In this document: in pieces, positions 1 through 19,527 of the stretch
Layout of the letters: each line of letters begins with the position of its first letter
How positions within the stretch are numbered: the stretch's first letter is position 1
Assembly (NCBI GenBank): GCA_002688395.1
Contig: NZCU01000014.1
Location: 1-34,226 of the forward strand
Length of the DNA: 34,226 bases
Reading direction: 5' to 3'
Source of the DNA: Nanobdellota archaeon
Lineage (GTDB): Archaea; Nanobdellota; Nanobdellia; SCGC-AAA011-G17; ARS1403
The notes under the pieces: model-generated
Databases searched by the model: none
What the model saw: the letters and a program-made list of their open reading frames with translations, nothing else
What the model was told of the DNA's origin: nothing
Translations under genes and position numbers: made by a program

Positions 1-93
1 GGATTAAAATATACAACACCTGTTTCGATTTATTATCCTGAAAGTAGAGAATATAAAATTGGTAAATTAGTCATAACTGCGGACATAAATTAA
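1..93 (+). CDS. 3' end of an upstream ORF (partial, runs off the window start)
   Basis: Frame 1 is open from base 1 to TAA at 91-93 (ends ...GKLVITADIN). It lies directly upstream of the pilin-like gene. Thirty residues are too few to assign a domain. Confidence 0.3.
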   Translation, partial: GLKYTTPVSIYYPESREYKIGKLVITADIN

Positions 94-94
94 A

Positions 95-559
95 ATGAAA
101 AAAAGAGGGCAAGCAGAAATATTTGGATTGATTATTATAGTTATTTTATTGATATTTGCTTTGTTATTTTTTGTTAAAACAAGACAAGATGATAGTTCTA
201 ATCTTACTATTAGAAGTAATTTAAGAGCTAATAATTTGTTAAATGCTATTATGAATTATCATGTTGGAGATGATAATATGAAAGAATTATTAAAAGAATG
301 TGTTAAAACTGGAGATCCAACTTCTCCGAAATGTGTTGGTACTAATGGTGTTGAAACAAAATTAATTGGTATTTTTGATAGTGAGGTTTTGTTGGAAGTT
401 GAAAATTATGAATTTAAAGGTTCTAAGGGAGATCTTAATGATCCAGTAAATCCAATAATACATTTACCTGCTAGCCCATGTGATACTGGAATAACTGCAA
501 GTCCTTTTAGATTACCAGGAAGGTATACTTTTGAATTAAAATTATGTTTTAGAGAATAA
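95..559 (+). CDS. Small secreted protein with class III (archaeal type IV pilin-like) signal peptide
   Basis: The N-terminus MKKRGQAEIFGLIIIVILLIFALLFFV has a basic n-region, then G-Q, then a long hydrophobic helix. This matches the KGQxxxE/hydrophobic class III signal-peptide pattern cleaved by prepilin peptidases. The mature part has 4 Cys. Confidence 0.7.
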   Translation: MKKRGQAEIFGLIIIVILLIFALLFFVKTRQDDSSNLTIRSNLRANNLLNAIMNYHVGDDNMKELLKECVKTGDPTSPKCVGTNGVETKLIGIFDSEVLLEVENYEFKGSKGDLNDPVNPIIHLPASPCDTGITASPFRLPGRYTFELKLCFRE

Positions 560-564
560 TTCTT

Positions 565-593
565 CTTACTAAGTAAGTAACTAAGTAACTAAG
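565..593. repeat. Palindrome plus short tandem repeat just upstream of a TATA-like box
   Basis: CTTACT-A-AGTAAG palindrome at 565-577, followed by AGTAACTA twice in tandem (576-583, 584-591). A TATA-like CTTTATATATC follows at about 597-607. Confidence 0.6.
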
Positions 594-629
594 AAAACTT
601 TATATATCAAAACACATGTTTAAAAATAT

Positions 630-755
630 ATGAAAAAGTACCTTCTTTTGATAGAGGATGAGAAATTATGGGTGAAATTTAAATCTGCTATTGATAAAGA
701 CCTTAATACCGAAATTATAGATCTTATTAAGAAGAAGGTAAGAGGGAGTAAATGA
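630..755 (+). CDS. Small ribbon-helix-helix (CopG/Arc-like) protein, 41 aa; below the ORF-track size cutoff
   Basis: Manual translation gives MKKYLLLIEDEKLWVKFKSAIDKDLNTEIIDLIKKKVRGSK, which has a beta-strand / helix / helix RHH-like pattern. Its TGA overlaps the next gene's ATG (ATGA at 752-755). Confidence 0.45.
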   Translation: MKKYLLLIEDEKLWVKFKSAIDKDLNTEIIDLIKKKVRGSK

Positions 756-2707
756 ATAATAAAGGCCAAGTTACAATATTTATTATTTTAGGAATTATAA
801 TTGTAATAGCTGCTTTAACTGCTAGTTTCTTGAGGGATCAATCTCTTACAGATATAGTACAAGGAATTGCTTTTAGAAGTGTTGTTGTACCTGAACAAGC
901 TCAAGGTGTTGTTAATTATGTAAATAATTGTATAGAAGATATTACTAAAGAAGGTATAGATATTATGGGGTTACAAGGAGGATATATAACAATTCCTAGA
1001 GAAATAGATGTTAATCCTAGAGCTTATTTACCTTTTACTGATAATATAAAAATTCCTTATTGGATATATGGTCAAAATATTAGAAATATTCCAGATATAA
1101 ATGATATGGAAAGAGATTTAGAGAATTTTATTGAGACTAGATTTGATGAGGATTGTGGGTTGGGAGTTTATGATGATCTTGGTTATGATGTTCCTAGTGG
1201 AAGTATAAGTGTGGATGTTGTAATTGGAGTAGAAACTGTGGATGTACGTTTAAGTTCTGGATTAAAAGTTGGTATAAAAGAAGATGAATATAATTTAGAT
1301 GAGTTTATTTTTGTTTCTTTATCAAGTAGGCTTAGTGAATTTTATGAGATGGCTATTGAGATTGTTAATAGAGAGACTAGAAGTATTGATGGGAAAGTCG
1401 CTCCTTTAGAATTTAATACTATGAATATGATTGCTTTATGGTCAAGAGATGAAGATGTAATTCCTTCCATTTCTAAATTTGATTTTAGTTGTAAACCTGC
1501 TACTTATTTTTTAACTGATGTTGCTAATGAGTTATCTAGAAGAATAAGTGATATGACTTCTCGTTTACAAATTGATGGAACTAATTTACAAACATTTGAT
1601 GATGCATTTTATGATAGTATGTTGATGGAGGATGTTTTTACTAGAGATCATGGTGATGTAGATTTACAATTTAATTTCTATGAAGGATGGCCATTTCTTT
1701 TAGATATTACTCCGAGGAATGGGCCTATATTGAAATCTAGTGTTTTGAAAATTGGTTTACCTTTATTACCTAAAATCTGTTTCAATAGTCATGATTTTAG
1801 ATATGATTTAGTTTATCCTGTTACTATTGATTTAGAAGCAGATGGGGAATTATTTAGATTCCCAATTGAAATTTTTATAGATAGTAATTATGGTAGGAGA
1901 AATTTATTTGGAAGAGAAACTAGATTACACACTCCTAGTAAATTTTGTGAAGAAACTCAAAAAATAAGTGAAGAAATTGTTGTGAAGGCTTTTGATAATT
2001 CTGATGGAGAAGAATTAGAAGATGTTAGAGTATTGTATACATGTGGATTAAATGAGTGTGTAATGGGGAATATTGGAGAGAATGATTTAGGAGTACTTGA
2101 ATATAGAAGTAGATTCCCTAATTGTGTTGGTGGAGAAGTGCAGTTAACAAAAGAAGGATATGGTATTTTTAGAGAGAGTTTGGATACTTTAGAATCTGGA
2201 GCACAAAGTATTTCTGCTGTAATGGAACCATTTAGAGAATTAAAGTTGGATTTTAATGTTGTTGAATTGGATAGTAATGATGGGATATTGGGAAATAGAG
2301 ATGTGAAATCAAGTGAGAATGTTATTTTACAATTAAATAGAATAAATGAAGATTTTGGTGGATTTGATGAAACTATTGTTATTAATTTTAATTATTTAGA
2401 TGATGTTAGTTTATCTTTAGTACCTGGAAGATATAATGTTGTTATTGATTTAGTTTTAACTGAGGAAACTTTGTTACAAGGACAAAATATTAATGGATTA
2501 GATGTTGAGTCTCAAACTGTTGATAATTTAGTTTTAGGTCATGCTGAATTTGAACATGATATAACTAATGGAGATTTATTAAATGAAAATATTAAATTTA
2601 ATATATTTGGAATCCAACCTTTATTGGTTGAAGATATTTTAAGAGGATATGAGATGAGTGAAATAGTTGAAAGAAATAGAGAGGTGCTAGATCTTGAGTT
2701 CAGCTAA
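752..2707 (+). CDS. Large (651 aa) protein with class III / pilin-like signal peptide
   Basis: The N-terminus MNNKGQVTIFIILGIIIVIAALTASF shows the same KGQ + hydrophobic helix motif as 95-559. An SD-like GGGAG lies upstream. The remainder is soluble and acidic with scattered Cys. Confidence 0.65.
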   Translation: MNNKGQVTIFIILGIIIVIAALTASFLRDQSLTDIVQGIAFRSVVVPEQAQGVVNYVNNCIEDITKEGIDIMGLQGGYITIPREIDVNPRAYLPFTDNIKIPYWIYGQNIRNIPDINDMERDLENFIETRFDEDCGLGVYDDLGYDVPSGSISVDVVIGVETVDVRLSSGLKVGIKEDEYNLDEFIFVSLSSRLSEFYEMAIEIVNRETRSIDGKVAPLEFNTMNMIALWSRDEDVIPSISKFDFSCKPATYFLTDVANELSRRISDMTSRLQIDGTNLQTFDDAFYDSMLMEDVFTRDHGDVDLQFNFYEGWPFLLDITPRNGPILKSSVLKIGLPLLPKICFNSHDFRYDLVYPVTIDLEADGELFRFPIEIFIDSNYGRRNLFGRETRLHTPSKFCEETQKISEEIVVKAFDNSDGEELEDVRVLYTCGLNECVMGNIGENDLGVLEYRSRFPNCVGGEVQLTKEGYGIFRESLDTLESGAQSISAVMEPFRELKLDFNVVELDSNDGILGNRDVKSSENVILQLNRINEDFGGFDETIVINFNYLDDVSLSLVPGRYNVVIDLVLTEETLLQGQNINGLDVESQTVDNLVLGHAEFEHDITNGDLLNENIKFNIFGIQPLLVEDILRGYEMSEIVERNREVLDLEFS

Positions 2708-5700
2708 AAAATTATTAATATTAATTTTACTTGTAATGATTTTGCCCATTGTTCATTCTCAATCTTCTGACTCTGTTATTAGTGGAAGTACTGCTGGAGG
2801 TACAGCAGATGCTTTTGCTGGATCTGCTTATGATAATGATGGAGATGGAGTTTGTAATGAAGGTAGAGATTTTTATAGAGATAGAAATATTAATTCATTT
2901 GATACTGGTTGTACTATTCCTGCTGTAAGAGATTTTTGTCCTGGCACACCTTCTGATGAAACTGCACATAGAAGTGGAGATAGGGCTGGATGTAGTGACA
3001 ATCAATTAACTGGATTTCAAAATTATTGGACTCTTAAAATAGAAAAAGATAAGATAAGACCTAAAACTGTTAAAACTAATTGGTTAGTTGATCAAAGACA
3101 AGGAATTAGAGTTTATCAACCCATTACTTTCCTTCAAAATGATGCTTTCTTAAATGATGATGAAAAAATAAATTATAGAGGTGTTAGTGTTAGATGTGAT
3201 AGTGGAAGAGGTGTTGTGAGAACTGAAGGTCTTAGAGATGTTGAAACTTCTGATGTTGATTTTAGTAGAGAAACAGGTGGTGGGAGAGTAGATGTTAGTT
3301 CTGCTAGGACTGGAGTTGTTTATATTGAAGAGAGCTATGGAAGTGTTTCTGTTTCTGATATTAATAGAACTGATTTAAATGCTGATTTGGTTATAAGATT
3401 GAGGCAACAAGCTGAAGAATTAGTAAGACCTAAAGATGTTAGAAATTATAGAGGGGATTTTGGTATTGATGAAATTGAATTTGAATGTACTGCTACAATT
3501 AATCAATGTAGAACAAGAATAGAAGTAGTAGATGGACAAAGAGTTGAGCAAGAAGGATGTAGTCCTATTTTTCCTCCTGAAACAGATGAATTTTTACTTG
3601 TTGTTCCATTAGATAGTGTAGCGATACAAGCACCTGAAGTATTTTTAGATGCAGGAATTGCTACAGCAACAGCAATTCTTAGTGTTACGAATGATGTAAA
3701 ACCTAAGTTAAGAGATTTATATGGATTTCTTAGAAATAATTGCTTAAGAGCTATTGGTATTGTTTTCACAAGTAAACTTTTTAGTGTTGTTCCTGGTGCA
3801 AATGAACTTGCTGATTTTATTTGGTTTGGACCTAAAAAATTACAAAACCTTGGGATATTTTATGAAGGTAGTTTTATTGTAAGTGGGAGATCTATGTGTG
3901 CTGCTACTGCTTGTCCTAGAGATTGGTGTAGACCTTTGAATTGGCATCCTGGTGGAAAAGAGAGTGGGAGTAAAAGCTTAGCTGATCTTACTTCAACTTA
4001 TAATGATAAAGGTGAAGTTGTAAGCACACAACCTATTCAGAATAGTTTAATATTAAGTACTGCTTGTGGATGTGTTAGTGGTATTTTGGCTAAAGTTTAT
4101 GAGATAGAAGCTATTGCAATAAATTGGAGAACTTGTATGCTTAGAGCGAAAGATTCTAATGAATTTATAGGGGAATGTGATAGATATCTTAAGGAAGGAA
4201 TATGTGAATTTGTTATTAGAGAGGTTGGCACTTTTGATAATTTTGATTTAGGATTGTTTAGTAGATTTAAAGATAAAGGAGGAGGAGGAGAAACTACAGA
4301 CCCACTTATAGAAGCAACTCAAGCTAAAGGTGCATTGGATAGACCTAAAGGTGCTTTTGGAGATGCAATTAGTAAAGGAAAGAAAAAATCAGAAGATTTT
4401 GCAAAAGATGAACTTGAAGTTATTGGTAGTTCTGGTGCTAAAGGTATTTTAGGATATAAGGATCATGCTTTGGCTAGAACATTTTGTTCTTTAGCTGTCT
4501 ATAAAGAGCTACCTGATTTGAGTACGTTACAATCTTATGATTTGAATAGGATAAGTATAGAGAGTACTACTACTTCTAATTGGGATATTAAAGAAGCTTA
4601 CAAAGGAGAAGGAGGAAGAAGTGTTTGGGGATATGAGATTAGTTGGATGATTGTTGCTGGTAAGGAAAATTTAAGATATAATGTTTATTTAGAAAGTGCT
4701 GGAGGTGCTAGAAGACAATTACATACAGATGTTTTACCTAATGTTGGAGATTTTGATTCTGACTTTGTTGAAATTACAGATAGTATTGAATATACAAATC
4801 TTTGCTTTGATTTGAGAGGAGATGCAAGAAGAATAAGATGTTTCCCTGCTGGAAGTGGTAGTCAAGGAGGATTATTAGAAGAATTTGGATTTGGTGGAGG
4901 GATTAATGATAGAGATAAAGATAGATTACCTGATGAATGGGAAGTTAGATTTAATTGTGATTCAAGTAGGACTAAATTTAATACTCCTGAAGATGAAAGA
5001 GCTTGTAAAGAATTATTATCTAATAGTGTGGATAATAGATTAGACCCTGATAATGACAATACAGATGGTGATAATACTAATGATGGAAGTGAAGATCCGG
5101 ATAATGACGGAATTAATAACTATCAAGAATATAGGACTAATGGCCATCCTAATGTTGCTTCTAGAACTGTAGATGGTAGCACTGTTCAGAGTAGTTGTAG
5201 GGCAGGATTTGATGATTTTGAAATTATTGGAGGGGATAATATTCCAAATATAAATTCTATATCTAAGAAATTTATTCCTGGTGAGACTTTAAGTGTTAGA
5301 TTAAATAATGTTAATATTGGAGAAGGGAATACTGTTAGTGAAAGAGATATTAAAGTTAGAGTGGATGTTAAAGGACCAAGATTATTTTCACTTGATCAAT
5401 TTGTAGATATCCCATTTAATCAAGCTTCTGTTAATAATAATCCTATTTGGAATATTCCTACTGGAAGAAATGCGCCTGATACTGAAGTTTATGAAGTAGT
5501 AGTTCAATTAGTTGTTCCTGGGAAATTTAACCTTAGAGAAGATGCATGTGTGGATTCGGGAGGAGTGTTAGCTGAAAAAACTAAGAAAATAATAATTTAT
5601 AATCCAAATAGTGGTAGTTGTATAGATAGTGATGAAGGGGTTAAGTTTAATGTTGCTGGTGCTTGTGTAGATAATACAGGAGTAGTTAGAGGAGATTCTT

Positions 5701-6308
5701 GCAATGGAAATGATCAAGTAAATGATTTCTTCTGTAATGGAAATAATATTTGTACTGTTAGAACTGGTAGTTGTAGTGGAGGTAATGTATGTAGGAATGG
5801 CGCTTGTGTTTCAGTAGTTGCTCAAAGCGTAAGTAGTGTAAGTAGTTCTGATGGTGGGGATACAACTGATGCTTCTATTTTAGATCAACAATTGGCAGCT
5901 GAGGATGAGATTGTGGTAGAGGAAATAGAACCTCTTCTTTTTGAATCGGAATTAGGAGACACTTTGTTAGTAGAACCAAGAGAATTGAGTGGTCTTTTAG
6001 ATTTGTCTTCTTCTGATTTTGTATCTTCTGCTGTGTCTGATAGAGAAGTTGCAGAAATGGAAATTACAACATATCTTAGTTGTCCTACACAAGATATTGT
6101 TTTCTTTTTAACAAAAGAAAGATCTGAGTCTGTTATGGACTTTATTGGTTTTAGGTGGAGAGGTGATGCTTGGTATATGAGTGTTTTGTATTTAAACGAC
6201 CGAGGAGAAGCTCTAGCATGCAATTCTAGAACTTCATTCGGAGGTTTAGTTAGCGAAGAAGCACATATTAGAGCAAGAGAGCTATGTTCATGTGGAGAAC
6301 CGAGATAA
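2694..6308 (+). CDS. Giant (1204 aa) secreted Cys-rich protein with thrombospondin type-3-like Asp-rich calcium-binding repeats
   Basis: TTG start at 2694 preceded by GAGAGGTG. Sec-type signal peptide SSAKKLLILILLVMILPIVHSQSS. DxDxDG-type repeats are present (YDNDGDGVCNEG; DPDNDNTDGDNTNDGSEDPDNDGINNYQEY). There are many Cys and an internal hydrophobic stretch around aa 315-380. Confidence 0.7.
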   Translation: MSSAKKLLILILLVMILPIVHSQSSDSVISGSTAGGTADAFAGSAYDNDGDGVCNEGRDFYRDRNINSFDTGCTIPAVRDFCPGTPSDETAHRSGDRAGCSDNQLTGFQNYWTLKIEKDKIRPKTVKTNWLVDQRQGIRVYQPITFLQNDAFLNDDEKINYRGVSVRCDSGRGVVRTEGLRDVETSDVDFSRETGGGRVDVSSARTGVVYIEESYGSVSVSDINRTDLNADLVIRLRQQAEELVRPKDVRNYRGDFGIDEIEFECTATINQCRTRIEVVDGQRVEQEGCSPIFPPETDEFLLVVPLDSVAIQAPEVFLDAGIATATAILSVTNDVKPKLRDLYGFLRNNCLRAIGIVFTSKLFSVVPGANELADFIWFGPKKLQNLGIFYEGSFIVSGRSMCAATACPRDWCRPLNWHPGGKESGSKSLADLTSTYNDKGEVVSTQPIQNSLILSTACGCVSGILAKVYEIEAIAINWRTCMLRAKDSNEFIGECDRYLKEGICEFVIREVGTFDNFDLGLFSRFKDKGGGGETTDPLIEATQAKGALDRPKGAFGDAISKGKKKSEDFAKDELEVIGSSGAKGILGYKDHALARTFCSLAVYKELPDLSTLQSYDLNRISIESTTTSNWDIKEAYKGEGGRSVWGYEISWMIVAGKENLRYNVYLESAGGARRQLHTDVLPNVGDFDSDFVEITDSIEYTNLCFDLRGDARRIRCFPAGSGSQGGLLEEFGFGGGINDRDKDRLPDEWEVRFNCDSSRTKFNTPEDERACKELLSNSVDNRLDPDNDNTDGDNTNDGSEDPDNDGINNYQEYRTNGHPNVASRTVDGSTVQSSCRAGFDDFEIIGGDNIPNINSISKKFIPGETLSVRLNNVNIGEGNTVSERDIKVRVDVKGPRLFSLDQFVDIPFNQASVNNNPIWNIPTGRNAPDTEVYEVVVQLVVPGKFNLREDACVDSGGVLAEKTKKIIIYNPNSGSCIDSDEGVKFNVAGACVDNTGVVRGDSCNGNDQVNDFFCNGNNICTVRTGSCSGGNVCRNGACVSVVAQSVSSVSSSDGGDTTDASILDQQLAAEDEIVVEEIEPLLFESELGDTLLVEPRELSGLLDLSSSDFVSSAVSDREVAEMEITTYLSCPTQDIVFFLTKERSESVMDFIGFRWRGDAWYMSVLYLNDRGEALACNSRTSFGGLVSEEAHIRARELCSCGEPR

Positions 6309-7111
6309 TGGAGCTTTTTAAGAAGAGTTTTAGTTTGTTAATTAATAATAAACAAAAAGTTTTTACTAGTGTAGGTGTTGATTTTATATTTTATATTTTA
6401 GTTTTGTTATCTGGATTTTATTTTTTTAATAAATTTTCTGAAAAGTTTGAAATAATAAATAATAATATTAGTAGTGTTGTTTTGGCTGATGAAGAACTTT
6501 CACAAGGAGCTTTACTTAAATTAAATGCTGTCTCTACTGCTTTGACAGATATGTTGTTAATTGTTATTGGTTATTTTATTTTAGTTTTAATTTTATGGGG
6601 GATCTTTAATGGTGCTGTTTGGTTAATATGTAAAAATATTATTAAAAATAAGAAACCTTTTGATGGTTTTGATATAACTTTTTTATCAAGATATTATATA
6701 TTAAGTTTATTTTGGTTTTTGATAACTGGAATTCTTTTCTTTTCTTTTTATAATTATAATTCTTATGTTTTATCTTTGGGAAATATTGGAATTTTAATTG
6801 TTAATTTACCAATTTTATTAATATTATATTTTGGAACTATTTCTTTTTCTTTGTTTTTTGTAAATGGAAAAACTATTAAATCTTTTACGAATTGTTTTAA
6901 ATTAGGATTAAGTAAAGTTTCTTTTTTAATTGCTTTTGTTTTATTTATTTTAATATTTTATTTTTCTGAATTTATTTTATTATCTTTAGGGAAGTTAATA
7001 AATTCTAATGTTTTTTCTATTTTAGGTATTATTGCTTTCTTGTTAATTATGGTTTGGTTTAGAGTTTATTTATTATTACTTGTAGAAAAATATGCGGGAG
7101 ACAGGATTTGA
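6308..7111 (+). CDS. Polytopic integral membrane protein (about 6-7 TM), unknown function
   Basis: I prefer the ATG at 6308, which overlaps the upstream TAA (TAATG), over the track start at 6284. The sequence is very hydrophobic and Phe/Leu/Ile-rich. The last 18 nt, including the TGA, lie inside the convergent tRNA-Leu. Confidence 0.6.
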   Translation: MELFKKSFSLLINNKQKVFTSVGVDFIFYILVLLSGFYFFNKFSEKFEIINNNISSVVLADEELSQGALLKLNAVSTALTDMLLIVIGYFILVLILWGIFNGAVWLICKNIIKNKKPFDGFDITFLSRYYILSLFWFLITGILFFSFYNYNSYVLSLGNIGILIVNLPILLILYFGTISFSLFFVNGKTIKSFTNCFKLGLSKVSFLIAFVLFILIFYFSEFILLSLGKLINSNVFSILGIIAFLLIMVWFRVYLLLLVEKYAGDRI

Positions 7112-7284: not shown

Positions 7285-7548
7285 ATGGGTGCTTTAACAG
7301 AGATATTGGAGTTGTTAATAGGTTTTATTGTTCTTCCTAGGATTGTTCTTTTTGGTTGGATACTATTTGCTGCTTATTTTAATTTAAGCAGTCTTCTAAT
7401 AACTCTTGTAGCCCAAATTTTGATTCTTTTTGTCCTTGCACGTCTTTTCTTTAATTTTAGAAGACTTATTGCTTATGGATTGATAATTGCAGGATTGGGG
7501 AGTGTAGTAGATTTTTTAATTAGTCTCCTTGGATTTAGTTTAGTTTAA
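7285..7548 (+). CDS. Small membrane protein (about 3 TM), unknown function
   Basis: 87-aa hydrophobic ORF. A TATA-like TTTTTATAT lies about 30 nt upstream, in a promoter region shared divergently with tRNA-Leu. Confidence 0.45.
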   Translation: MGALTEILELLIGFIVLPRIVLFGWILFAAYFNLSSLLITLVAQILILFVLARLFFNFRRLIAYGLIIAGLGSVVDFLISLLGFSLV

Positions 7549-16684: not shown

Positions 16685-17380
16685 ATGTATTGTTTGACTG
16701 ATTCTCAAAAAGTAGATTTGGCTTATTTAATTGGGGCTGTTATTGGTGATGGATCTTATATGAACACTAAGAGTGGAAAAAGACGAAATATTAGATTTTC
16801 TTTCGGTTCTTCTGATAGGGAGTTTGTCGTTATTATAAAGGACATTATTAGAGACATTTTTTCCCTTGAATTAAACATATGTGTTGAAAGATTATCTCTA
16901 AAAAATAATGCATGGAGAGACCATTATAAAATAAGGAGTAGAATATTGCACAGACATCTTAAAAAATATCTTCCTGATAAGAATAAAATACCTAGTTTTG
17001 TCTATAATTCAAACCACTTTATTAAAAGTAGTTTTATTTCTGGATTTTTTGATGCTGAAGGAGGAATTTGTGTTAGTACTATAAAATCCAGAAATGTTTT
17101 AGATAGGAGATTGTATTGTCATAATTTCAATATTGATTTATTGAATGAAATTAAAGGATACTTATCTGAATTAGATATTGATTGTTTTATACAGAATAGT
17201 AAGAGAGCTTATGCTTTAAATATTTGGGGTTATAAAAATTTGGTTAATTTTAAAAATAAAATTGACTTTAGAATTTATAGAAAGAGATTTAAACTATTAG
17301 GTGCTATAAATAGTTATAAATTTGTTCACAAAAAATACAGACATTTGAAAGTTGATGTTCAAAACTTAGGAGGGATTTAA
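16685..17380 (+). CDS. LAGLIDADG homing endonuclease (compact two-motif form)
   Basis: Classic motifs are present: LAYLIGAVIGDGSY and FISGFFDAEGGI. Confidence 0.85.
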   Translation: MYCLTDSQKVDLAYLIGAVIGDGSYMNTKSGKRRNIRFSFGSSDREFVVIIKDIIRDIFSLELNICVERLSLKNNAWRDHYKIRSRILHRHLKKYLPDKNKIPSFVYNSNHFIKSSFISGFFDAEGGICVSTIKSRNVLDRRLYCHNFNIDLLNEIKGYLSELDIDCFIQNSKRAYALNIWGYKNLVNFKNKIDFRIYRKRFKLLGAINSYKFVHKKYRHLKVDVQNLGGI

Positions 17381-17381
17381 A

Positions 17382-17483
17382 ATGAGCGACGATATAGAAA
17401 AAGAGTCAGTAAAGATAACAGATACAAAAAATAGTGATAACCATACTGTGTTTGTAGGCCCCAAACCTTTTAACAGAATTTAG
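17382..17483 (+). other. Alba N-terminal fragment ORF ending at an in-frame TAG
   Basis: MSDDIEKESVKITDTKNSDNHTVFVGPKPFNRI then stop. HTVFVGPKP matches the Alba beta1 consensus (v-IGkKP). It is in the same frame as 17505-17750. Confidence 0.6.
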
Positions 17484-17504
17484 CGAAATGCTATTTCTGG
17501 AAGA

Positions 17505-17750
17505 GTGAATTATGTTACAGGGGTCGTGATGCAGTTTACAACACAAGGTGCTAATGAAGTTGTTGTTAAAGCTAGGGGTAGATTTATTTCTAGAGCTGTA
17601 GATATTGTTGAGGTTGCCACTAAGAGATTTTTAGAGGGACAAATAGAAATAGCTAAAGATGGAATTAATATTGGAAGTGAGGAATTTGAAAATAAAGAAG
17701 GAAAACAAGTTAGAGTGAGTTTTATAGAATTAAGTCTTATCAAACGATAA
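17505..17750 (+). CDS. albA: Alba (Sac10b-family) DNA/RNA-binding protein, main body
   Basis: NYVTGVVMQF...EVVVKARGRFISRAVDIVEVATKRF is the Alba core. GTG at 17505 is the only nearby start, and the canonical N-terminal strand is encoded upstream of an in-frame TAG. Confidence 0.8.
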   Translation: MNYVTGVVMQFTTQGANEVVVKARGRFISRAVDIVEVATKRFLEGQIEIAKDGINIGSEEFENKEGKQVRVSFIELSLIKR

Positions 17751-17823
17751 TTTTATTCCTTTTTCAATATTTAATAACTTTTAAATAGAATTTAATTCTA
17801 AACTATAGCTAAAAAGAGGTAAA

Positions 17824-19527
17824 ATGGTAAGTGGATTTGAAGCTTCGATACAGTCTAATTTATTTTTTAATATTGGATTAGTGCTAGTTGTTGCTACTAT
17901 TGTAGGTTATTTGGCTAGATTGATTAGACAACCATTGATTCCTGCTTATATTTTAGCTGGTATTTTAATTGGTCCTTTTGGTTTAGGATTGATAAAAGAA
18001 AGTGAAATTATAATTGCTTTAAGTGAAATTGGTATTGCGTTTCTGTTATTTATTGTTGGCTTGGAGATAGATTTAAAGAAATTAAAGGAAGTTGGATTAG
18101 TTAGTACTCTTGGAGGAACTATACAAGTAGCTTCTGTATTTTTTATTGGTTTTTTGGCAGCAATGGCTTTTGGATTTGTGAGGGTTGAGGCTATTTACTT
18201 AGGGTTTGTTCTAGCTTTTTCTAGTACCATGATTGTGATTAAGTTGTTGAGTGATAAGAGTGAGATGAACACTTTACATGGGAAAATTATTTTGGGGATA
18301 TTGTTGATGCAAGACATTATTGTTATTTTTGTTTTAATTTTATTGCAATCCTTGGGTAGCTTAAATTTATCTTTGTTATTGTGGGCGTTTTTGAAAGGCG
18401 CGATATTATTAGCTTTTGCAGTTCTTTTGAGTCAGTTTGTGTTACCTTTTATATTTAGATTTAGTGCTAGAACCCAAGAGTTGTTGTTTTTAAGTTCAAT
18501 TTCTGTTTGTTTTGTATTTTCTTTAGTAGCTTTTAGTTTTGGCTTTTCAATTGTTATAGGAGCTTTTTTAGCAGGGTTGGCTTTAGCTTCTTTACCTTAT
18601 CACTTTGATATAGCTGGAAAGATTATTCCTTTAAGAGATTTTTTCGCTACTTTATTTTTTGTTAGTTTAGGAATGGAGTTAGTGTTTGATTCTTTTAATG
18701 GATTGTTAGGGCCTTTGATTGTATTTTTGGGAATTATAATTTTGTTAAAGCCTTTGATTTTTATGATAATTACAAGTGTGTTTGGGTATAAGAAAAGAAC
18801 CGCGTTTTTTACTTCAATTTCATTAGCTCAAATAAGTGAGTTTTCTTTAGTTTTAGTTGCTTTAGGTTTGAACTTAGGACATGTTTCTAATCAAATTTTT
18901 ACTTTAACTGTGTTGTTGGCTATTATAACAATTGCTTTGACGTCTTATTTCATTAAATATGATAGAAATTTATATGGAATGTTCTCAAAAAAATTGAATG
19001 TTTTTGAAAGATTAGCTTTGAAAAATTCTGAGTTAGAACATTTACCTTATCATGAAAGAAAAGACATTATTATTTTTGGAGCTCATAGAATGGGAAGAAT
19101 ATTTATTGATACTTTAAATAAAGTTAAAAGTAATTTTGTTGTTGTTGATTTTGACCCTCAAATTATTAGAAATTTAATTAATAAAAAAATACCTTGTGTT
19201 TATGGTGATGTTGCAAATACTGAAGTTCTTAAAAGATTAAACTTGAATTCTGCTAAAATGGTTATAAGTACTATTCCTAATGATGAAGATAATATATTTT
19301 TAATTAAACATATTAAGAAAACGAATCCTGGTGCTATTCTTATAGTTACTTCTAGTCATGCAGGTAGTGCTTTGCATTTATATGATATTGGTGCTGATTA
19401 TGTTATTGTACCTCATTTATTGAGTGGAGAGATTGTTTCTCATAATTTGGTTGAATTAATTGAGAAGAAGAAAGATGTTGAGGAAATGAAAGTTAGGCAT
19501 ATTAAACATTTAAAGAGTAATAAATAA
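17824..19527 (+). CDS. Kef-type (CPA2) monovalent cation:proton antiporter with C-terminal RCK/TrkA-N domain
   Basis: About 12 TM segments typical of the Na+/H+ exchanger family, then a Rossmann-type IIIFGAHRMGRIF...VVVDFD. SD AAAGAGGT lies upstream. Confidence 0.8.
   Translation: MVSGFEASIQSNLFFNIGLVLVVATIVGYLARLIRQPLIPAYILAGILIGPFGLGLIKESEIIIALSEIGIAFLLFIVGLEIDLKKLKEVGLVSTLGGTIQVASVFFIGFLAAMAFGFVRVEAIYLGFVLAFSSTMIVIKLLSDKSEMNTLHGKIILGILLMQDIIVIFVLILLQSLGSLNLSLLLWAFLKGAILLAFAVLLSQFVLPFIFRFSARTQELLFLSSISVCFVFSLVAFSFGFSIVIGAFLAGLALASLPYHFDIAGKIIPLRDFFATLFFVSLGMELVFDSFNGLLGPLIVFLGIIILLKPLIFMIITSVFGYKKRTAFFTSISLAQISEFSLVLVALGLNLGHVSNQIFTLTVLLAIITIALTSYFIKYDRNLYGMFSKKLNVFERLALKNSELEHLPYHERKDIIIFGAHRMGRIFIDTLNKVKSNFVVVDFDPQIIRNLINKKIPCVYGDVANTEVLKRLNLNSAKMVISTIPNDEDNIFLIKHIKKTNPGAILIVTSSHAGSALHLYDIGADYVIVPHLLSGEIVSHNLVELIEKKKDVEEMKVRHIKHLKSNK

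What the first reader, a model, noticed from the sequence alone, without database searches (positions are those of the whole stretch)
1..7111. Pilin-like / giant secreted protein / membrane protein operon: candidate cell-surface attachment apparatus
These same-strand genes have overlapping or near-abutting junctions: a partial upstream ORF, a 154-aa protein and a 651-aa protein both with class III prepilin-type signal peptides (RG-QAEIFGLIII..., KG-QVTIFIILGIII...), a 41-aa RHH ORF between them, a 1204-aa Sec-secreted Cys-rich protein, and a 7-TM-like membrane protein. No assembly ATPase or platform gene is in the window; they may lie upstream. Pilin-type N-termini on a 651-aa protein plus a giant calcium-repeat protein suggest a surface fibre or adhesin. 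In a small-genome archaeon that could mediate host or partner contact.
Basis: partly seen in the sequence, partly recalled or inferred. Interest (0 to 1): 0.6.

Follow-up and report, generated by a model that had tools for sequence, protein, structure and literature searches.

The report
Pilin-like anchor plus giant surface protein
A tiny uncultivated (DPANN, Woese-/Pacearchaeota-type) archaeon carries one copy of a surface-protein operon found in about 95% of sampled genomes of its class: a small regulator, a pilus-subunit-like protein and a giant secreted protein that in sister lineages ends in enzymes that cut bacterial cell walls, so it is a good candidate for the gear these archaea use to contact other cells.

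Summary
All the ORFs exist with coupled junctions. The 154-aa and 651-aa proteins carry archaeal prepilin-type (class III) N-termini. The 1204-aa protein has a Sec signal and 36 Cys, and the last gene encodes a 6-TM protein.

The core is a conserved unit. The 651-aa family occurs in 192/197 genomes of the order and 143/151 of a phylum sample. It is essentially always followed directly (median overlap 4 nt) by a 1000-3000-aa secreted giant.

A 41-aa protein, 64-79% identical across relatives, heads the unit. It sits behind a tetranucleotide repeat array fused to the TATA box. That array is unique in this genome.

No assembly ATPase lies within 10 kb in any of 84 related loci. This genome does hold two secretion-ATPase loci and a prepilin peptidase elsewhere. 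One of those loci ends in a pilin-signal protein with an intact lytic transglycosylase domain.

Orthologous giants in fully syntenic sister loci end in SLT or Amidase_3. A more distant giant carries an internal Peptidase_M23 domain. This window's giant has none.

The likeliest reading is a regulated, pilin-anchored adhesin or tool-holder module for cell contact. Display on a filament versus a plain membrane anchor remains unresolved. The giant family is published; the partner, the regulator cassette and the membrane protein were not found in the papers searched. This scan has already met the module in at least eight other genomes.

The parts
1..93 (+). 3' end of a small prepilin-like gene. Its homologues are 162-178 aa with a KKG|QLEI N-terminus.
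   Evidence: One search shows the sequence. tblastn of the L013 172-aa protein hits bases 1-87. Gene maps of L012, L013, L094 and L095 show the same order.
95..559 (+). 154-aa prepilin-like protein (class III signal MKKRG|QAEIF, 4 Cys). It is the last gene of an upstream row of small pilin-like genes.
   Evidence: Homologues of 143-164 aa sit at the same position in L012-L014, L094 and L095.
566..592 (.). Operator-like array of about seven STAA/STTA tetranucleotide units (CTTACTAAGTAAGTAACTAAGTAACTAAG), directly abutting the promoter.
   Evidence: The same kind of array precedes the 41-aa gene in all 22 loci examined. It is the only such cluster in the 630-kb assembly.
591..606 (+). BRE/TATA-like promoter element AAGAAAACTTTATATA, 23 nt before the ATG at 630. 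This spacing predicts a leaderless or near-leaderless transcript.
   Evidence: The consensus AAGAAAnATTTATA is aligned in 19 loci, with 24-45 nt between it and the start codon. The function as a promoter is inferred from archaeal promoter knowledge.
630..755 (+). 41-aa basic protein (MKKYLLLIEDEKLW.KFK..I.KDLNTEII.LIKKK). It is the proposed ribbon-helix-helix-type autoregulator of the unit.
   Evidence: It is 64-79% identical to 15 aligned homologues whose neighbouring 651-family proteins are only about 25% identical. BLASTP found it in 21 of 84 loci. An ATGA overlap couples it to the next gene. No RHH profile hit was found.
752..2707 (+). 651-aa class III-signal ('modular pilin-like') protein. 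It has an N-terminal hydrophobic helix, a flexible linker, an alpha/beta domain (about residues 48-290) and several beta-sandwich domains (about 300-620).
   Evidence: Family searches. AlphaFold2 model with mean pLDDT 83. Foldseek finds CnaB/Ig-type pilins and adhesins and SlaB at low TM-scores. The family is present in 192/197 and 143/151 genomes.
2694..6308 (+). 1204-aa Sec-secreted giant. Parts in order: signal peptide (residues 1-23), beta-rich N-terminal part, Cys-rich helical central module (about 320-520, the only part shared with distant giants), beta-sandwiches, TSP3-like Asp sites (739-750, 797-812), a 65-aa Cys-rich module (about 975-1040), an acidic linker and a small 4-Cys C-terminal domain (1041-1204).
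   Evidence: No Pfam or NCBIfam family matches. Orthologues end in SLT or Amidase_3.
6308..7111 (+). Polytopic (6 predicted TM) membrane protein, 267 aa from ATG 6308 (275 aa from 6284). It is the last gene of the unit.
   Evidence: Iterated HMM search finds 26 homologous ORFs, all lying within these modules on the same strand. Few columns are conserved (W113, R260 and aromatic positions) and no catalytic-type motif is evident. Start site.

Best explanation
The window opens inside a surface-protein gene cluster typical of Nanoarchaeia (Woese-/Pacearchaeota-type DPANN archaea). Its core (bases 566-7111) is a self-contained operon. It consists of a promoter fused to a repeat operator, a 41-aa DNA-binding-type regulator, a 651-aa protein with a prepilin (class III) signal, a 1204-aa Sec-exported protein stabilised by disulfides and calcium, and a 6-TM membrane protein. 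In this clade it sits directly behind a row of small prepilin-like genes, of which 1-93 and 95-559 are the last two.

Proposed working, in steps:
1. The 41-aa protein binds the tandem STAA repeats next to the TATA box and gates transcription (inferred).
2. The genome's A24 prepilin peptidase (contig C26) cuts the pilin-like proteins after K/R-G (inferred from the invariant cleavage motif).
3. A type-IV-pilus-like ATPase/platform system encoded elsewhere (C26 or C27) builds them into a short fibre or stalk. The small proteins act as minor pilins, and the 651-aa protein acts as the large modular subunit (inferred by analogy).
4. The giant is exported by Sec and docks on the 651-aa partner, probably through its conserved central Cys-rich module. 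It projects a variable outer end towards another cell (inferred from obligate gene coupling and from which part is conserved).
5. In sister lineages the giant carries a murein hydrolase (a C-terminal SLT or Amidase_3 domain; Peptidase_M23 as an internal domain in one distant giant). The module is therefore a holder for tools that grip or open bacterial walls. In this genome the giant has only a small unknown end domain and most likely acts as an adhesin. An SLT domain is instead carried by a pilin-signal protein in the C26 pilus-like locus.

What is shown: gene content, coupling, conservation, signal motifs, the machinery elsewhere in the genome, and hydrolase domains in orthologues. What is inferred: processing, assembly, docking, regulation and the target.
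For: Gene structure and coupling.

The class III motif is invariant across the family, and the N-terminal helix is the best conserved part.

Machinery in the same genome: an A24 peptidase, two T2SSE ATPases with pilin-like rows, and a weak platform match (13.7 bits, below cut-off).

Pairing: 72 of 88 family members are followed by an ORF of at least 900 aa, and 11 more by an ORF cut off at the contig end. Four of the five exceptions look like giants fragmented by frame breaks. The median gap is -4 nt.

Distribution: the family is in 192/197 genomes of the order and 143/151 of the phylum sample, at 1-8 copies.

Full synteny (small pilins, 41-aa gene, about 650-aa pilin-like gene, giant, TM6 gene) holds in L012-L014, L094 and L095. 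L092 and L093 show the 3' part of it (pilin-like gene, giant, TM6).

Variable end on a conserved core of about 1030 aa. SLT, Amidase_3 and Peptidase_M23 are confirmed by Pfam. SLT is found in 16 module ORFs.

The 41-aa protein is highly conserved. The conserved operator-like array is unique in the genome.

A pilin-signal protein with an intact SLT signature (ES...GVMQ...YNGPG) ends the C26 pilus-like locus.

N-glycosylation sequons are depleted in both proteins, unlike two sequon-rich large proteins of the same genome. This argues against an S-layer glycoprotein.
Against: No ATPase, platform or peptidase lies within 10 kb of the unit in any of 84 related loci. A physical link to a pilus machine is therefore only co-occurrence in the genome.

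The AlphaFold2 model of the 651-aa protein shows a low-confidence linker (residues 30-44) between the hydrophobic helix and the first globular domain. A classical pilin has a continuous alpha-1 helix packed on a beta-sheet. The protein may therefore be merely membrane-tethered.

No Pfam archaeal pilin model matches. This is uninformative, because the pilin-like proteins next to this genome's ATPases do not match either.

The window's giant has no hydrolase or recognisable adhesin domain. Its model is poor (pLDDT 59.8) and has no significant structural match.

The RHH assignment has no profile support.

Hydrolase domains were detected in only a minority of the modules sampled (SLT in 16 ORFs).
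Confidence: 0.5

Rival explanations
1. Membrane-anchored envelope complex with no filament. After, or even without, signal cleavage the 651-aa protein stays in the membrane by its N-terminal helix as a stalk made of beta-sandwich domains. The 6-TM protein helps to hold it. The giant forms an outer coat or spike on it. This would resemble the SlaB stalk with the SlaA canopy of Sulfolobus S-layers, or class III-signal binding proteins of the bindosome.
For: The family is near-universal across the class and usually multi-copy, which fits a core envelope part. There is no linked ATPase. The second-best Foldseek match of the 651-aa model is SlaB of the SlaA/SlaB S-layer (8qox_B, E 9e-7). A flexible linker follows the N-terminal helix. 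Giants diverge fast, as surface-exposed proteins do. A 2026 survey reports that class III-signal proteins that are not pilins are widespread in archaea (PMC13705601).
Against: The -1/+1 cleavage motif and specific residues of the helix are invariant (Q+1, T+3, F+5). A plain anchor would not need that. SlaB is anchored by its C-terminus, and the structural match has TM-scores of only 0.13-0.18, so it reflects tandem beta-sandwiches only. Sequons are strongly depleted (0 against 4.6 expected; 1 against 9.9 expected). Meanwhile AglB is present in 26/31 relatives, and two other large proteins of this genome are sequon-rich and are better S-layer candidates. A dedicated repressor-type cassette and a row of small pilin-like genes are unusual for a constitutive coat.
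Confidence: 0.27
2. Type-II-secretion-like export. The small and large pilin-like proteins form a pseudopilus that pushes the Sec-exported giant through the cell envelope. The giant is released as a free exoprotein (an enzyme or toxin in relatives), not held on the cell.
For: The arrangement of several small pilin-like proteins plus one large one resembles the GspH-K minor pseudopilins. The giant has a Sec signal and, in relatives, hydrolase domains typical of secreted enzymes.
Against: These archaea have no outer membrane to cross (general knowledge). No secretin-like or linked ATPase genes are present. One-to-one translational coupling of the giant with the 651-aa partner across hundreds of genomes, and a giant core conserved only in its central module, fit a stable complex better than a passing substrate. 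The conserved 6-TM partner has no counterpart in type II systems.
Confidence: 0.08
3. The genes are neighbours by chance or history and do not work together. The pilin-like N-termini are just signal anchors.
For: None of the proteins matches a curated family.
Against: Adjacency with overlapping stop and start codons holds in essentially all of 88 cases, across a whole class of archaea.
Confidence: 0.02

Closest known systems
[quoted passage not shown] 2021, PMC8204110; also Vigneron et al. 2022, PMC9723730)
   Same: The lineage and the kind of protein are the same: Sec-secreted giants of up to about 3000 aa. Orthologues of the window's giant with 31-36% identity over about 85% of its length, in syntenic loci where context was fetched, end in an SLT domain.
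   Different: The window's protein has no SLT or other hydrolase domain. The passages read from these papers do not mention the pilin-signal partner, the 41-aa regulator with its operator, the 6-TM protein, or the exchange of SLT for Amidase_3, for an unknown domain or for no end domain. I could not check whether the window's subfamily was clustered into fam00969.
Minor-pilin/PilY1 tip complex of bacterial type IVa pili (fimU-pilVWXY1E), and the GspH-K tip of type II secretion pseudopili (from general knowledge)
   Same: The gene logic is shared: a row of several small pilin-like genes, one large pilin-like protein, and a protein of about 1000 aa or more that is not a pilin, is exported by Sec, binds calcium and serves adhesion.
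   Different: There is no sequence or fold similarity to PilY1 or GspK. The ATPase is unlinked, there is a 6-TM partner, and the system is archaeal. This is a resemblance in how it may work, not membership.
Modular type IV pilins such as PilB of Streptococcus sanguinis (PMC8179133), and archaeal class III-signal proteins that are not plain pilins (bindosome binding proteins; survey PMC13705601)
   Same: A pilin-type N-terminus is followed by large grafted domains that give the fibre or surface a function.
   Different: The grafted part here is an unknown alpha/beta domain plus beta-sandwiches, not a vWA or solute-binding domain. A complete pilin module is not evident in the model.
MetJ/CopG/Arc ribbon-helix-helix repressors binding tandem short repeats (from general knowledge)
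   Same: The 41-aa protein has a similar size and a similar predicted strand-helix-helix pattern. A tandem short-period repeat array overlaps the promoter, as with the 8-bp metboxes.
   Different: No profile match was found, and neither the fold nor binding has been tested.
SlaA/SlaB two-component S-layer of Sulfolobales (PDB 8qox)
   Same: It is a gene pair of a membrane-anchored beta-sandwich stalk and a giant secreted partner. SlaB is among the best structural matches.
   Different: The anchor is at the other end of the protein and is of prepilin type. Sequons are depleted rather than abundant. A regulator cassette is present.

Membership tests
Archaeal class III-signal (prepilin-type) proteins | A short basic leader ending in [KR]-[GAS], with cleavage before a small or polar residue, followed by about 20 hydrophobic residues | tested here: met
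   154-aa protein: MKKRG|QAEIFGLIIIVILLIFALLFFV. 651-aa protein: MNNKG|QVTIFIILGIIIVIAALTASFL. The motif is kept in all 30 full-length homologues, with Q+1, T+3 and F+5 invariant.
Archaeal class III-signal (prepilin-type) proteins | A cognate A24-family prepilin peptidase (PibD/FlaK/EppA type) in the genome | tested here: met
   C26:28682-29560 encodes a 292-aa protein that matches PF01478 at 46.5-50 bits, above the 26.5-bit cut-off. Actual cleavage cannot be tested here.
Type IV pilins (filament subunits) | Pilin fold: a long continuous N-terminal helix packed onto a beta-sheet head | tested here: inconclusive
   The AlphaFold2 model has helix 3-28, a low-confidence stretch at 30-44 and helix 48-74, followed by alpha/beta and beta-sandwich domains. 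There is no Foldseek hit to type IV pilins. The 154-aa protein was not modelled.
Type IV pilins (filament subunits) | Match to curated archaeal pilin models (Pfam Pilin_N, Class_IIIsignal) | tested here: not met
   No hit at E <= 1. As a control, the pilin-like proteins next to this genome's own ATPases also give no hit, so the negative result says little.
Type IV filament system (ATPase + platform + pilins + peptidase) | An assembly ATPase and a platform protein present and linked to the pilin genes | tested here: not met
   They are present in the genome: C27:2094-3710, and C26:14825-17074 followed by 17076-19172. They are not in the window, and none lies within 10 kb in 84 related loci. Scattered type IV filament genes are reported as typical for DPANN archaea (PMC13705601).
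fam00969-type giant murein-lytic proteins of Woese-/Pacearchaeota | A murein-like lytic transglycosylase (SLT/GH23) domain in a secreted giant protein | tested here: not met
   The 1204-aa protein has no Pfam hit at E <= 1. Its orthologues P0039, P0041-P0044 and the L094 and L095 giants do have SLT, and P0040 has Amidase_3.
fam00969-type giant murein-lytic proteins of Woese-/Pacearchaeota | Homology of the protein body to SLT-bearing giants | tested here: met
   Identity is 31-36% over 83-86% of the query to SLT- or amidase-bearing members, with 110 invariant columns including 24 Cys.
Ribbon-helix-helix regulators | A sequence or profile match to RHH families, or the beta-alpha-alpha fold | tested here: not met
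   There are no Pfam or NCBIfam hits. A profile of 16 homologues run against PDB sequences finds no RHH protein.
Ribbon-helix-helix regulators | A repeated operator at its own promoter | tested here: met
   An array of STAA/STTA repeats abuts the TATA box in all 22 loci examined, and it is unique in this genome. Binding was not tested.
S-layer glycoprotein pair (SlaA/SlaB type) | Abundant N-glycosylation sequons and a C-terminally anchored stalk | tested here: not met
   Sequons number 0 against 4.6 expected and 1 against 9.9 expected. Family-wide observed/expected ratios are 0.56 and 0.43, against 0.77 for other ORFs. The anchor is N-terminal.
PilY1-type pilus tip adhesins | A C-terminal beta-propeller with a calcium site, or sequence homology to PilY1 | tested here: not met
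   No family hit was found. The giant's low-confidence model has no propeller and no significant PDB match.

The most novel reading that the evidence does not exclude
The unit is a switchable archaeal cell-contact device that has not been described in the papers searched. A prepilin-type protein mounts a giant 'tool-holder' on a pilus-like fibre or stalk, and the outer end of the giant is exchanged between lineages (SLT, amidase, unknown domains, or nothing; M23 occurs as an internal domain in one case). The whole unit is gated by a class-wide conserved 41-aa repressor and its tetranucleotide-repeat operator. If so, most Woese-/Pacearchaeota would contact, and many would breach, bacterial rather than archaeal partners.
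Probability: 0.3. Interest if true: 0.8.

Novelty: new variant of a known kind. Interest (0 to 1): 0.55.

Why it matters
Woesearchaeota and Pacearchaeota are abundant and almost entirely uncultivated, and their hosts are unknown. A gene unit present in about 95% of their sampled genomes gives concrete, testable handles on how they attach and to whom. Those handles are a defined regulator and operator, a predicted peptidase substrate, and enzyme domains whose substrate is bacterial murein. This window adds three things to the published 'giant lytic transglycosylase' observation: the hydrolase head is dispensable on a conserved body, the unit can sit behind a row of minor-pilin-like genes, and the same genome places an SLT domain directly on a pilin-signal protein inside a pilus-like locus. 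Within this scan the module is no longer new, because at least eight earlier follow-ups describe it in other genomes.

Tried and rejected
- Contig joining. I looked for overlap between the start of C14 and other contig ends and found none. I also tested whether the open pilin-like ORF at the 3' end of C26 is the missing upstream gene. It has no similarity to the upstream genes of relatives. The upstream genes of L013 are not in the assembly.
- Pfam and NCBIfam on all window proteins gave nothing usable.
- A PDB profile search for the 41-aa family gave no RHH hit.
- Foldseek of the 651-aa model found only generic tandem beta-sandwich matches with TM-scores of 0.72 or less, and 0.33 or less for alignments over 200 columns.
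- The AlphaFold2 model of the giant was poor (pLDDT 59.8), and its Foldseek hits were not significant. Weak matches to beta-pore-forming toxins (probability 0.1-0.4) were disregarded.
- A second word-based search with alignment A2 found fewer relatives than the single sequence did.
- The metagenome scan returned only 5 loci.
- The first representatives job failed because the profile was too long. It was repeated with a trimmed alignment.
- The 6-TM protein was checked for a conserved catalytic-type residue pattern and none was seen, so an enzymatic role is unsupported but not excluded.
- AglB was not found in this genome, which is 73% complete. I therefore tested relatives instead.


Full report
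**What is in the sequence.**

The window is the first 34 kb of contig C14 of a 630-kb assembly. The assembly has 46 contigs, is 73% complete and has about 29% G+C. The closest related loci come from genomes labelled Nanoarchaeota, Woesearchaeota or Pacearchaeota.

On the + strand of bases 1-7111 lie the following:
- the last 30 codons of an ORF that runs off the contig (1-93)
- a 154-aa ORF (95-559)
- a 70-nt spacer
- a 41-aa ORF (630-755)
- a 651-aa ORF (752-2707, ATGA overlap)
- a 1204-aa ORF (2694-6308, TTG start behind a GAGGTG box)
- a membrane-protein ORF (6284-7111)

The membrane-protein gene more likely starts at ATG 6308. That gives a TAATG overlap and an N-terminus, MELFKKSF, like that of its homologues. 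None of these proteins matches a Pfam or NCBIfam family.

**The prepilin-type signals are real.**

The 154-aa and 651-aa proteins begin MKKRG|QAEIF... and MNNKG|QVTIF..., each followed by about 20 hydrophobic residues. For the 651-aa family this is a family trait. All 30 full-length homologues retrieved show [KR]-[GAS]|Q-x-T-x-F-I-I. Q+1, T+3 and F+5 are invariant. The N-terminal helix is the most conserved stretch of the protein (0.63 against 0.41 majority fraction). A plain signal anchor would not need that.

In the whole genome, 22 of 760 ORFs fit the motif, and about 17 of them look convincing. Most of those lie beside the two secretion-ATPase genes on contigs C26 and C27.

The genome encodes an A24 prepilin peptidase (C26:28682-29560). 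It also has a 538-aa and a 749-aa T2SSE-type ATPase, and a 698-aa platform-like protein (PF00482 13.7 bits, below cut-off). Pfam's archaeal pilin models hit neither the window's proteins nor the pilin-like proteins next to those ATPases. That negative result is therefore uninformative.

**A conserved, obligate gene pair.**

The 651-aa family was found in at least 390 species-representative genomes, all Nanoarchaeota, Woesearchaeota or Pacearchaeota-type metagenome-assembled genomes. A few of them carry mislabelled titles.

A profile search found it in 192 of 197 genomes of the window's order that are at least 80% complete. It also found it in 143 of 151 genomes sampled across the phylum, all of the same class, usually at 1-8 copies.

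In 88 cases where downstream sequence exists, the next gene on the same strand is:
- an ORF of at least 900 aa in 72 cases (median 1820 aa, median gap -4 nt)
- an ORF cut off by the contig end in 11 cases
- something else in 5 cases, of which four look like giants broken by frame breaks

The giants are very diverse. Outside the window's own subfamily they share only a central Cys-rich module, corresponding to about residues 320-520 of the window protein. The window's subfamily has about 13 clusters at 50% identity among 1.84 billion proteins.

**The closest clade and what lies upstream.**

In L012-L014, L094 and L095 the order is:
1. small prepilin-like genes (153, 292, 162-178 and 143-164 aa)
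2. the 41-aa gene
3. the pilin-like gene of about 650 aa
4. a giant of 1021-1370 aa
5. a 6-TM protein of 250-259 aa

After that come unrelated genes. L092 and L093 show the 3' part of this order (pilin-like gene, giant, TM6). The window's bases 1-93 match the C-terminus of the 172-aa protein. So the 3' border at 7111 is right, and the cluster continues upstream of the contig end with more pilin-like genes.

In L013 a further giant of at least 2459 aa, with Ig-like domains, precedes them. The missing upstream genes are not in the assembly.

No ATPase, platform or peptidase gene lies within 10 kb in any of 84 related loci. All five relatives' genomes tested do carry T2SSE ATPases elsewhere. In the complete genome CP061211 the nearest one is about 30 kb away. 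A 2026 survey likewise reports that type IV filament genes are scattered in DPANN genomes (PMC13705601).

**The regulator cassette.**

BLASTP with the 41-aa protein found homologues in 21 of the 84 loci. Fifteen aligned homologues are 64-79% identical to the window copy, although the neighbouring 651-family proteins are only about 25% identical.

In all 22 loci examined, an array of about 35 nt made of STAA/STTA tetranucleotide units precedes it. In the window this reads CTTACTAAGTAAGTAACTAAGTAACTAAG, at 566-592. The array runs straight into an AAGAAAnnTTTATATA element (591-606), which lies 23 nt before the ATG. This cluster is the only one of its kind in the 630-kb assembly.

The protein's pattern is a short strand followed by two helices, with basic ends. 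That suggests a ribbon-helix-helix repressor acting on tandem repeats, as MetJ does on metboxes (my own knowledge). No profile search confirmed the fold. The core unit therefore has its own promoter, and the 154-aa gene belongs to the upstream pilin row.

**The proteins.**

The AlphaFold2 model of the 651-aa protein is good, with mean pLDDT 83. It shows the N-terminal helix, a low-confidence linker (30-44), an alpha/beta domain (about 48-290) and several beta-sandwich domains (about 300-620). Its PDB matches are CnaB/Ig-type Gram-positive pilins and adhesins and the S-layer stalk SlaB. All have low TM-scores, so they show only a stalk-like string of beta-sandwiches.

The giant has the following features:
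- a Sec signal
- 36 Cys (24 of these positions invariant in the alignment)
- three invariant DxDxD-type sites, which hit TSP3_bac in relatives
- a Cys-rich repeat module of about 65 aa that is widespread in other proteins
- a 164-aa tail that is shared only with P0038 among the 11 relatives aligned

Its model is poor (pLDDT 59.8) and finds no significant structural match.

The 6-TM protein has 26 homologous ORFs, all within these modules on the same strand. It has no evident conserved catalytic-type residue pattern.

**The link to bacterial cell walls.**

The conserved body of about 1030 aa carries a variable C-terminal end:
- nothing (P0034, P0037)
- extra Cys-rich repeats (P0035, P0036)
- SLT lytic transglycosylase (P0039, P0041-P0044, and the L094 and L095 giants)
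- Amidase_3 (P0040)
- the unknown domain of the window and P0038

More distant modules carry SLT in the giant or in the second downstream protein, 16 ORFs in all. The giant of the complete Pacearchaeota genome carries an internal Peptidase_M23 domain (residues 1870-1991 of 2562).

[quoted passage not shown] The passages I read do not mention the pilin-signal partner, the regulator cassette or the membrane protein.

In the window's own genome the only SLT domain lies in a 414-aa protein with a prepilin-type N-terminus (MNKRG|LFFASISIIMVV). Its ES...GVMQ...YNGPG signature is intact. It is the last gene of the ATPase-platform-pilin row on C26. This ties murein cleavage to pilus-like machinery in this organism.

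**Coat or fibre?**

Near-universal presence and the SlaB-like stalk raised the idea of a two-part S-layer. Three observations count against it:
- The cleavage motif is invariant.
- The regulator cassette and the small-pilin row are unusual for a constitutive coat.
- N-glycosylation sequons are strikingly scarce. The 651-aa protein has 0 against 4.6 expected (P about 0.01), and the giant has 1 against 9.9 expected (P < 0.0005).

By contrast, two other large proteins of the genome are sequon-rich, with 31 and 26 sequons. Across the family the observed/expected ratios are 0.56 and 0.43, against 0.77 for other ORFs in the same loci.

The oligosaccharyltransferase AglB is missing from this incomplete assembly. 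It is present in 26 of 31 relatives, including the one genome of the same genus.

Still, nothing here shows that a filament is built. The linker after the N-terminal helix would also suit a simple membrane tether.

**Verdict.**

The best explanation, at about 0.5, is a regulated module of pilin-type anchor plus giant adhesin or tool-holder. It would be served by pilus-like machinery encoded elsewhere and used for contact with other cells, probably bacteria.

The main rival, at about 0.27, is the same complex held directly in the membrane as an envelope structure. A type-II-like secretion role (0.08) and chance linkage (0.02) are unlikely.

Earlier follow-ups in this scan describe the same module in at least eight other genomes. 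I reached the same picture independently before reading them. From them I took only the pointer to 'fam00969', which I then checked in the paper.

Noticed in passing
G000 contig C26:23716-24960 (L098:11717-12961), outside the window: A 414-aa protein has a prepilin-type N-terminus (MNKRG|LFFASISIIMVV) and an intact SLT lytic transglycosylase signature (ES...GVMQ...YNGPG; Pfam 31 bits, cut-off 21.3). It is the last gene of an ATPase-platform-pilin row. It is the only SLT match in the genome.
   Followed up: partly
window 752-6308; also G000 C7:783-7724, C24:3316-6981, C34:25585-28566: N-glycosylation sequons are almost absent from the 651-aa protein (0), the giant (1) and another 2313-aa secreted giant on C7 (0 against 17.6 expected). 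Two other large proteins are sequon-rich (31 and 26) and may be the true S-layer glycoproteins. AglB is missing in this assembly but present in 26/31 relatives.
   Followed up: partly
window 5620-5810 (giant residues about 975-1040): A module of about 65 aa with 6 Cys (C.DSD.G...C.D..G...D.C......Y.C....C......C..G..C..G.C) recurs as 4-11 tandem copies in hundreds of otherwise unrelated proteins of 400-900 aa in the representative library. No Pfam family matched any module protein scanned.
   Followed up: no
G000 C26:30565-31168: A further prepilin-like ORF (MKRG|QAGNIATLISLIALF) runs off the 3' end of C26, about 1 kb downstream of the prepilin peptidase gene. It is unrelated to the genes expected upstream of the window.
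   Followed up: partly
G000 C27:944-2080 (+), next to the 538-aa ATPase gene (2094-3710, minus strand): A 378-aa ORF on the opposite strand sits just downstream of the ATPase gene in the pilin-ATPase row. It might be a mobile-element gene. It was not scanned.
   Followed up: no
L008:18370-21303 and L077:11860-19548: In a 1.47-Mb Woesearchaeota contig, the module's fourth gene (977 aa) combines SLT with a weak GDSL-lipase-like match. In the complete Pacearchaeota genome CP061211, the 2562-aa giant carries Peptidase_M23.
   Followed up: partly
window 6284-6310: The membrane-protein gene probably starts at ATG 6308 (TAATG overlap with the giant's stop codon), not at 6284. Homologues begin at the equivalent of MELFKKSF.
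   Followed up: yes
window 7285-7548: An 87-aa, very hydrophobic ORF follows the cluster after the intron-bearing tRNA-Leu region. It has no family match and no homologue in the 89 related loci.
   Followed up: partly
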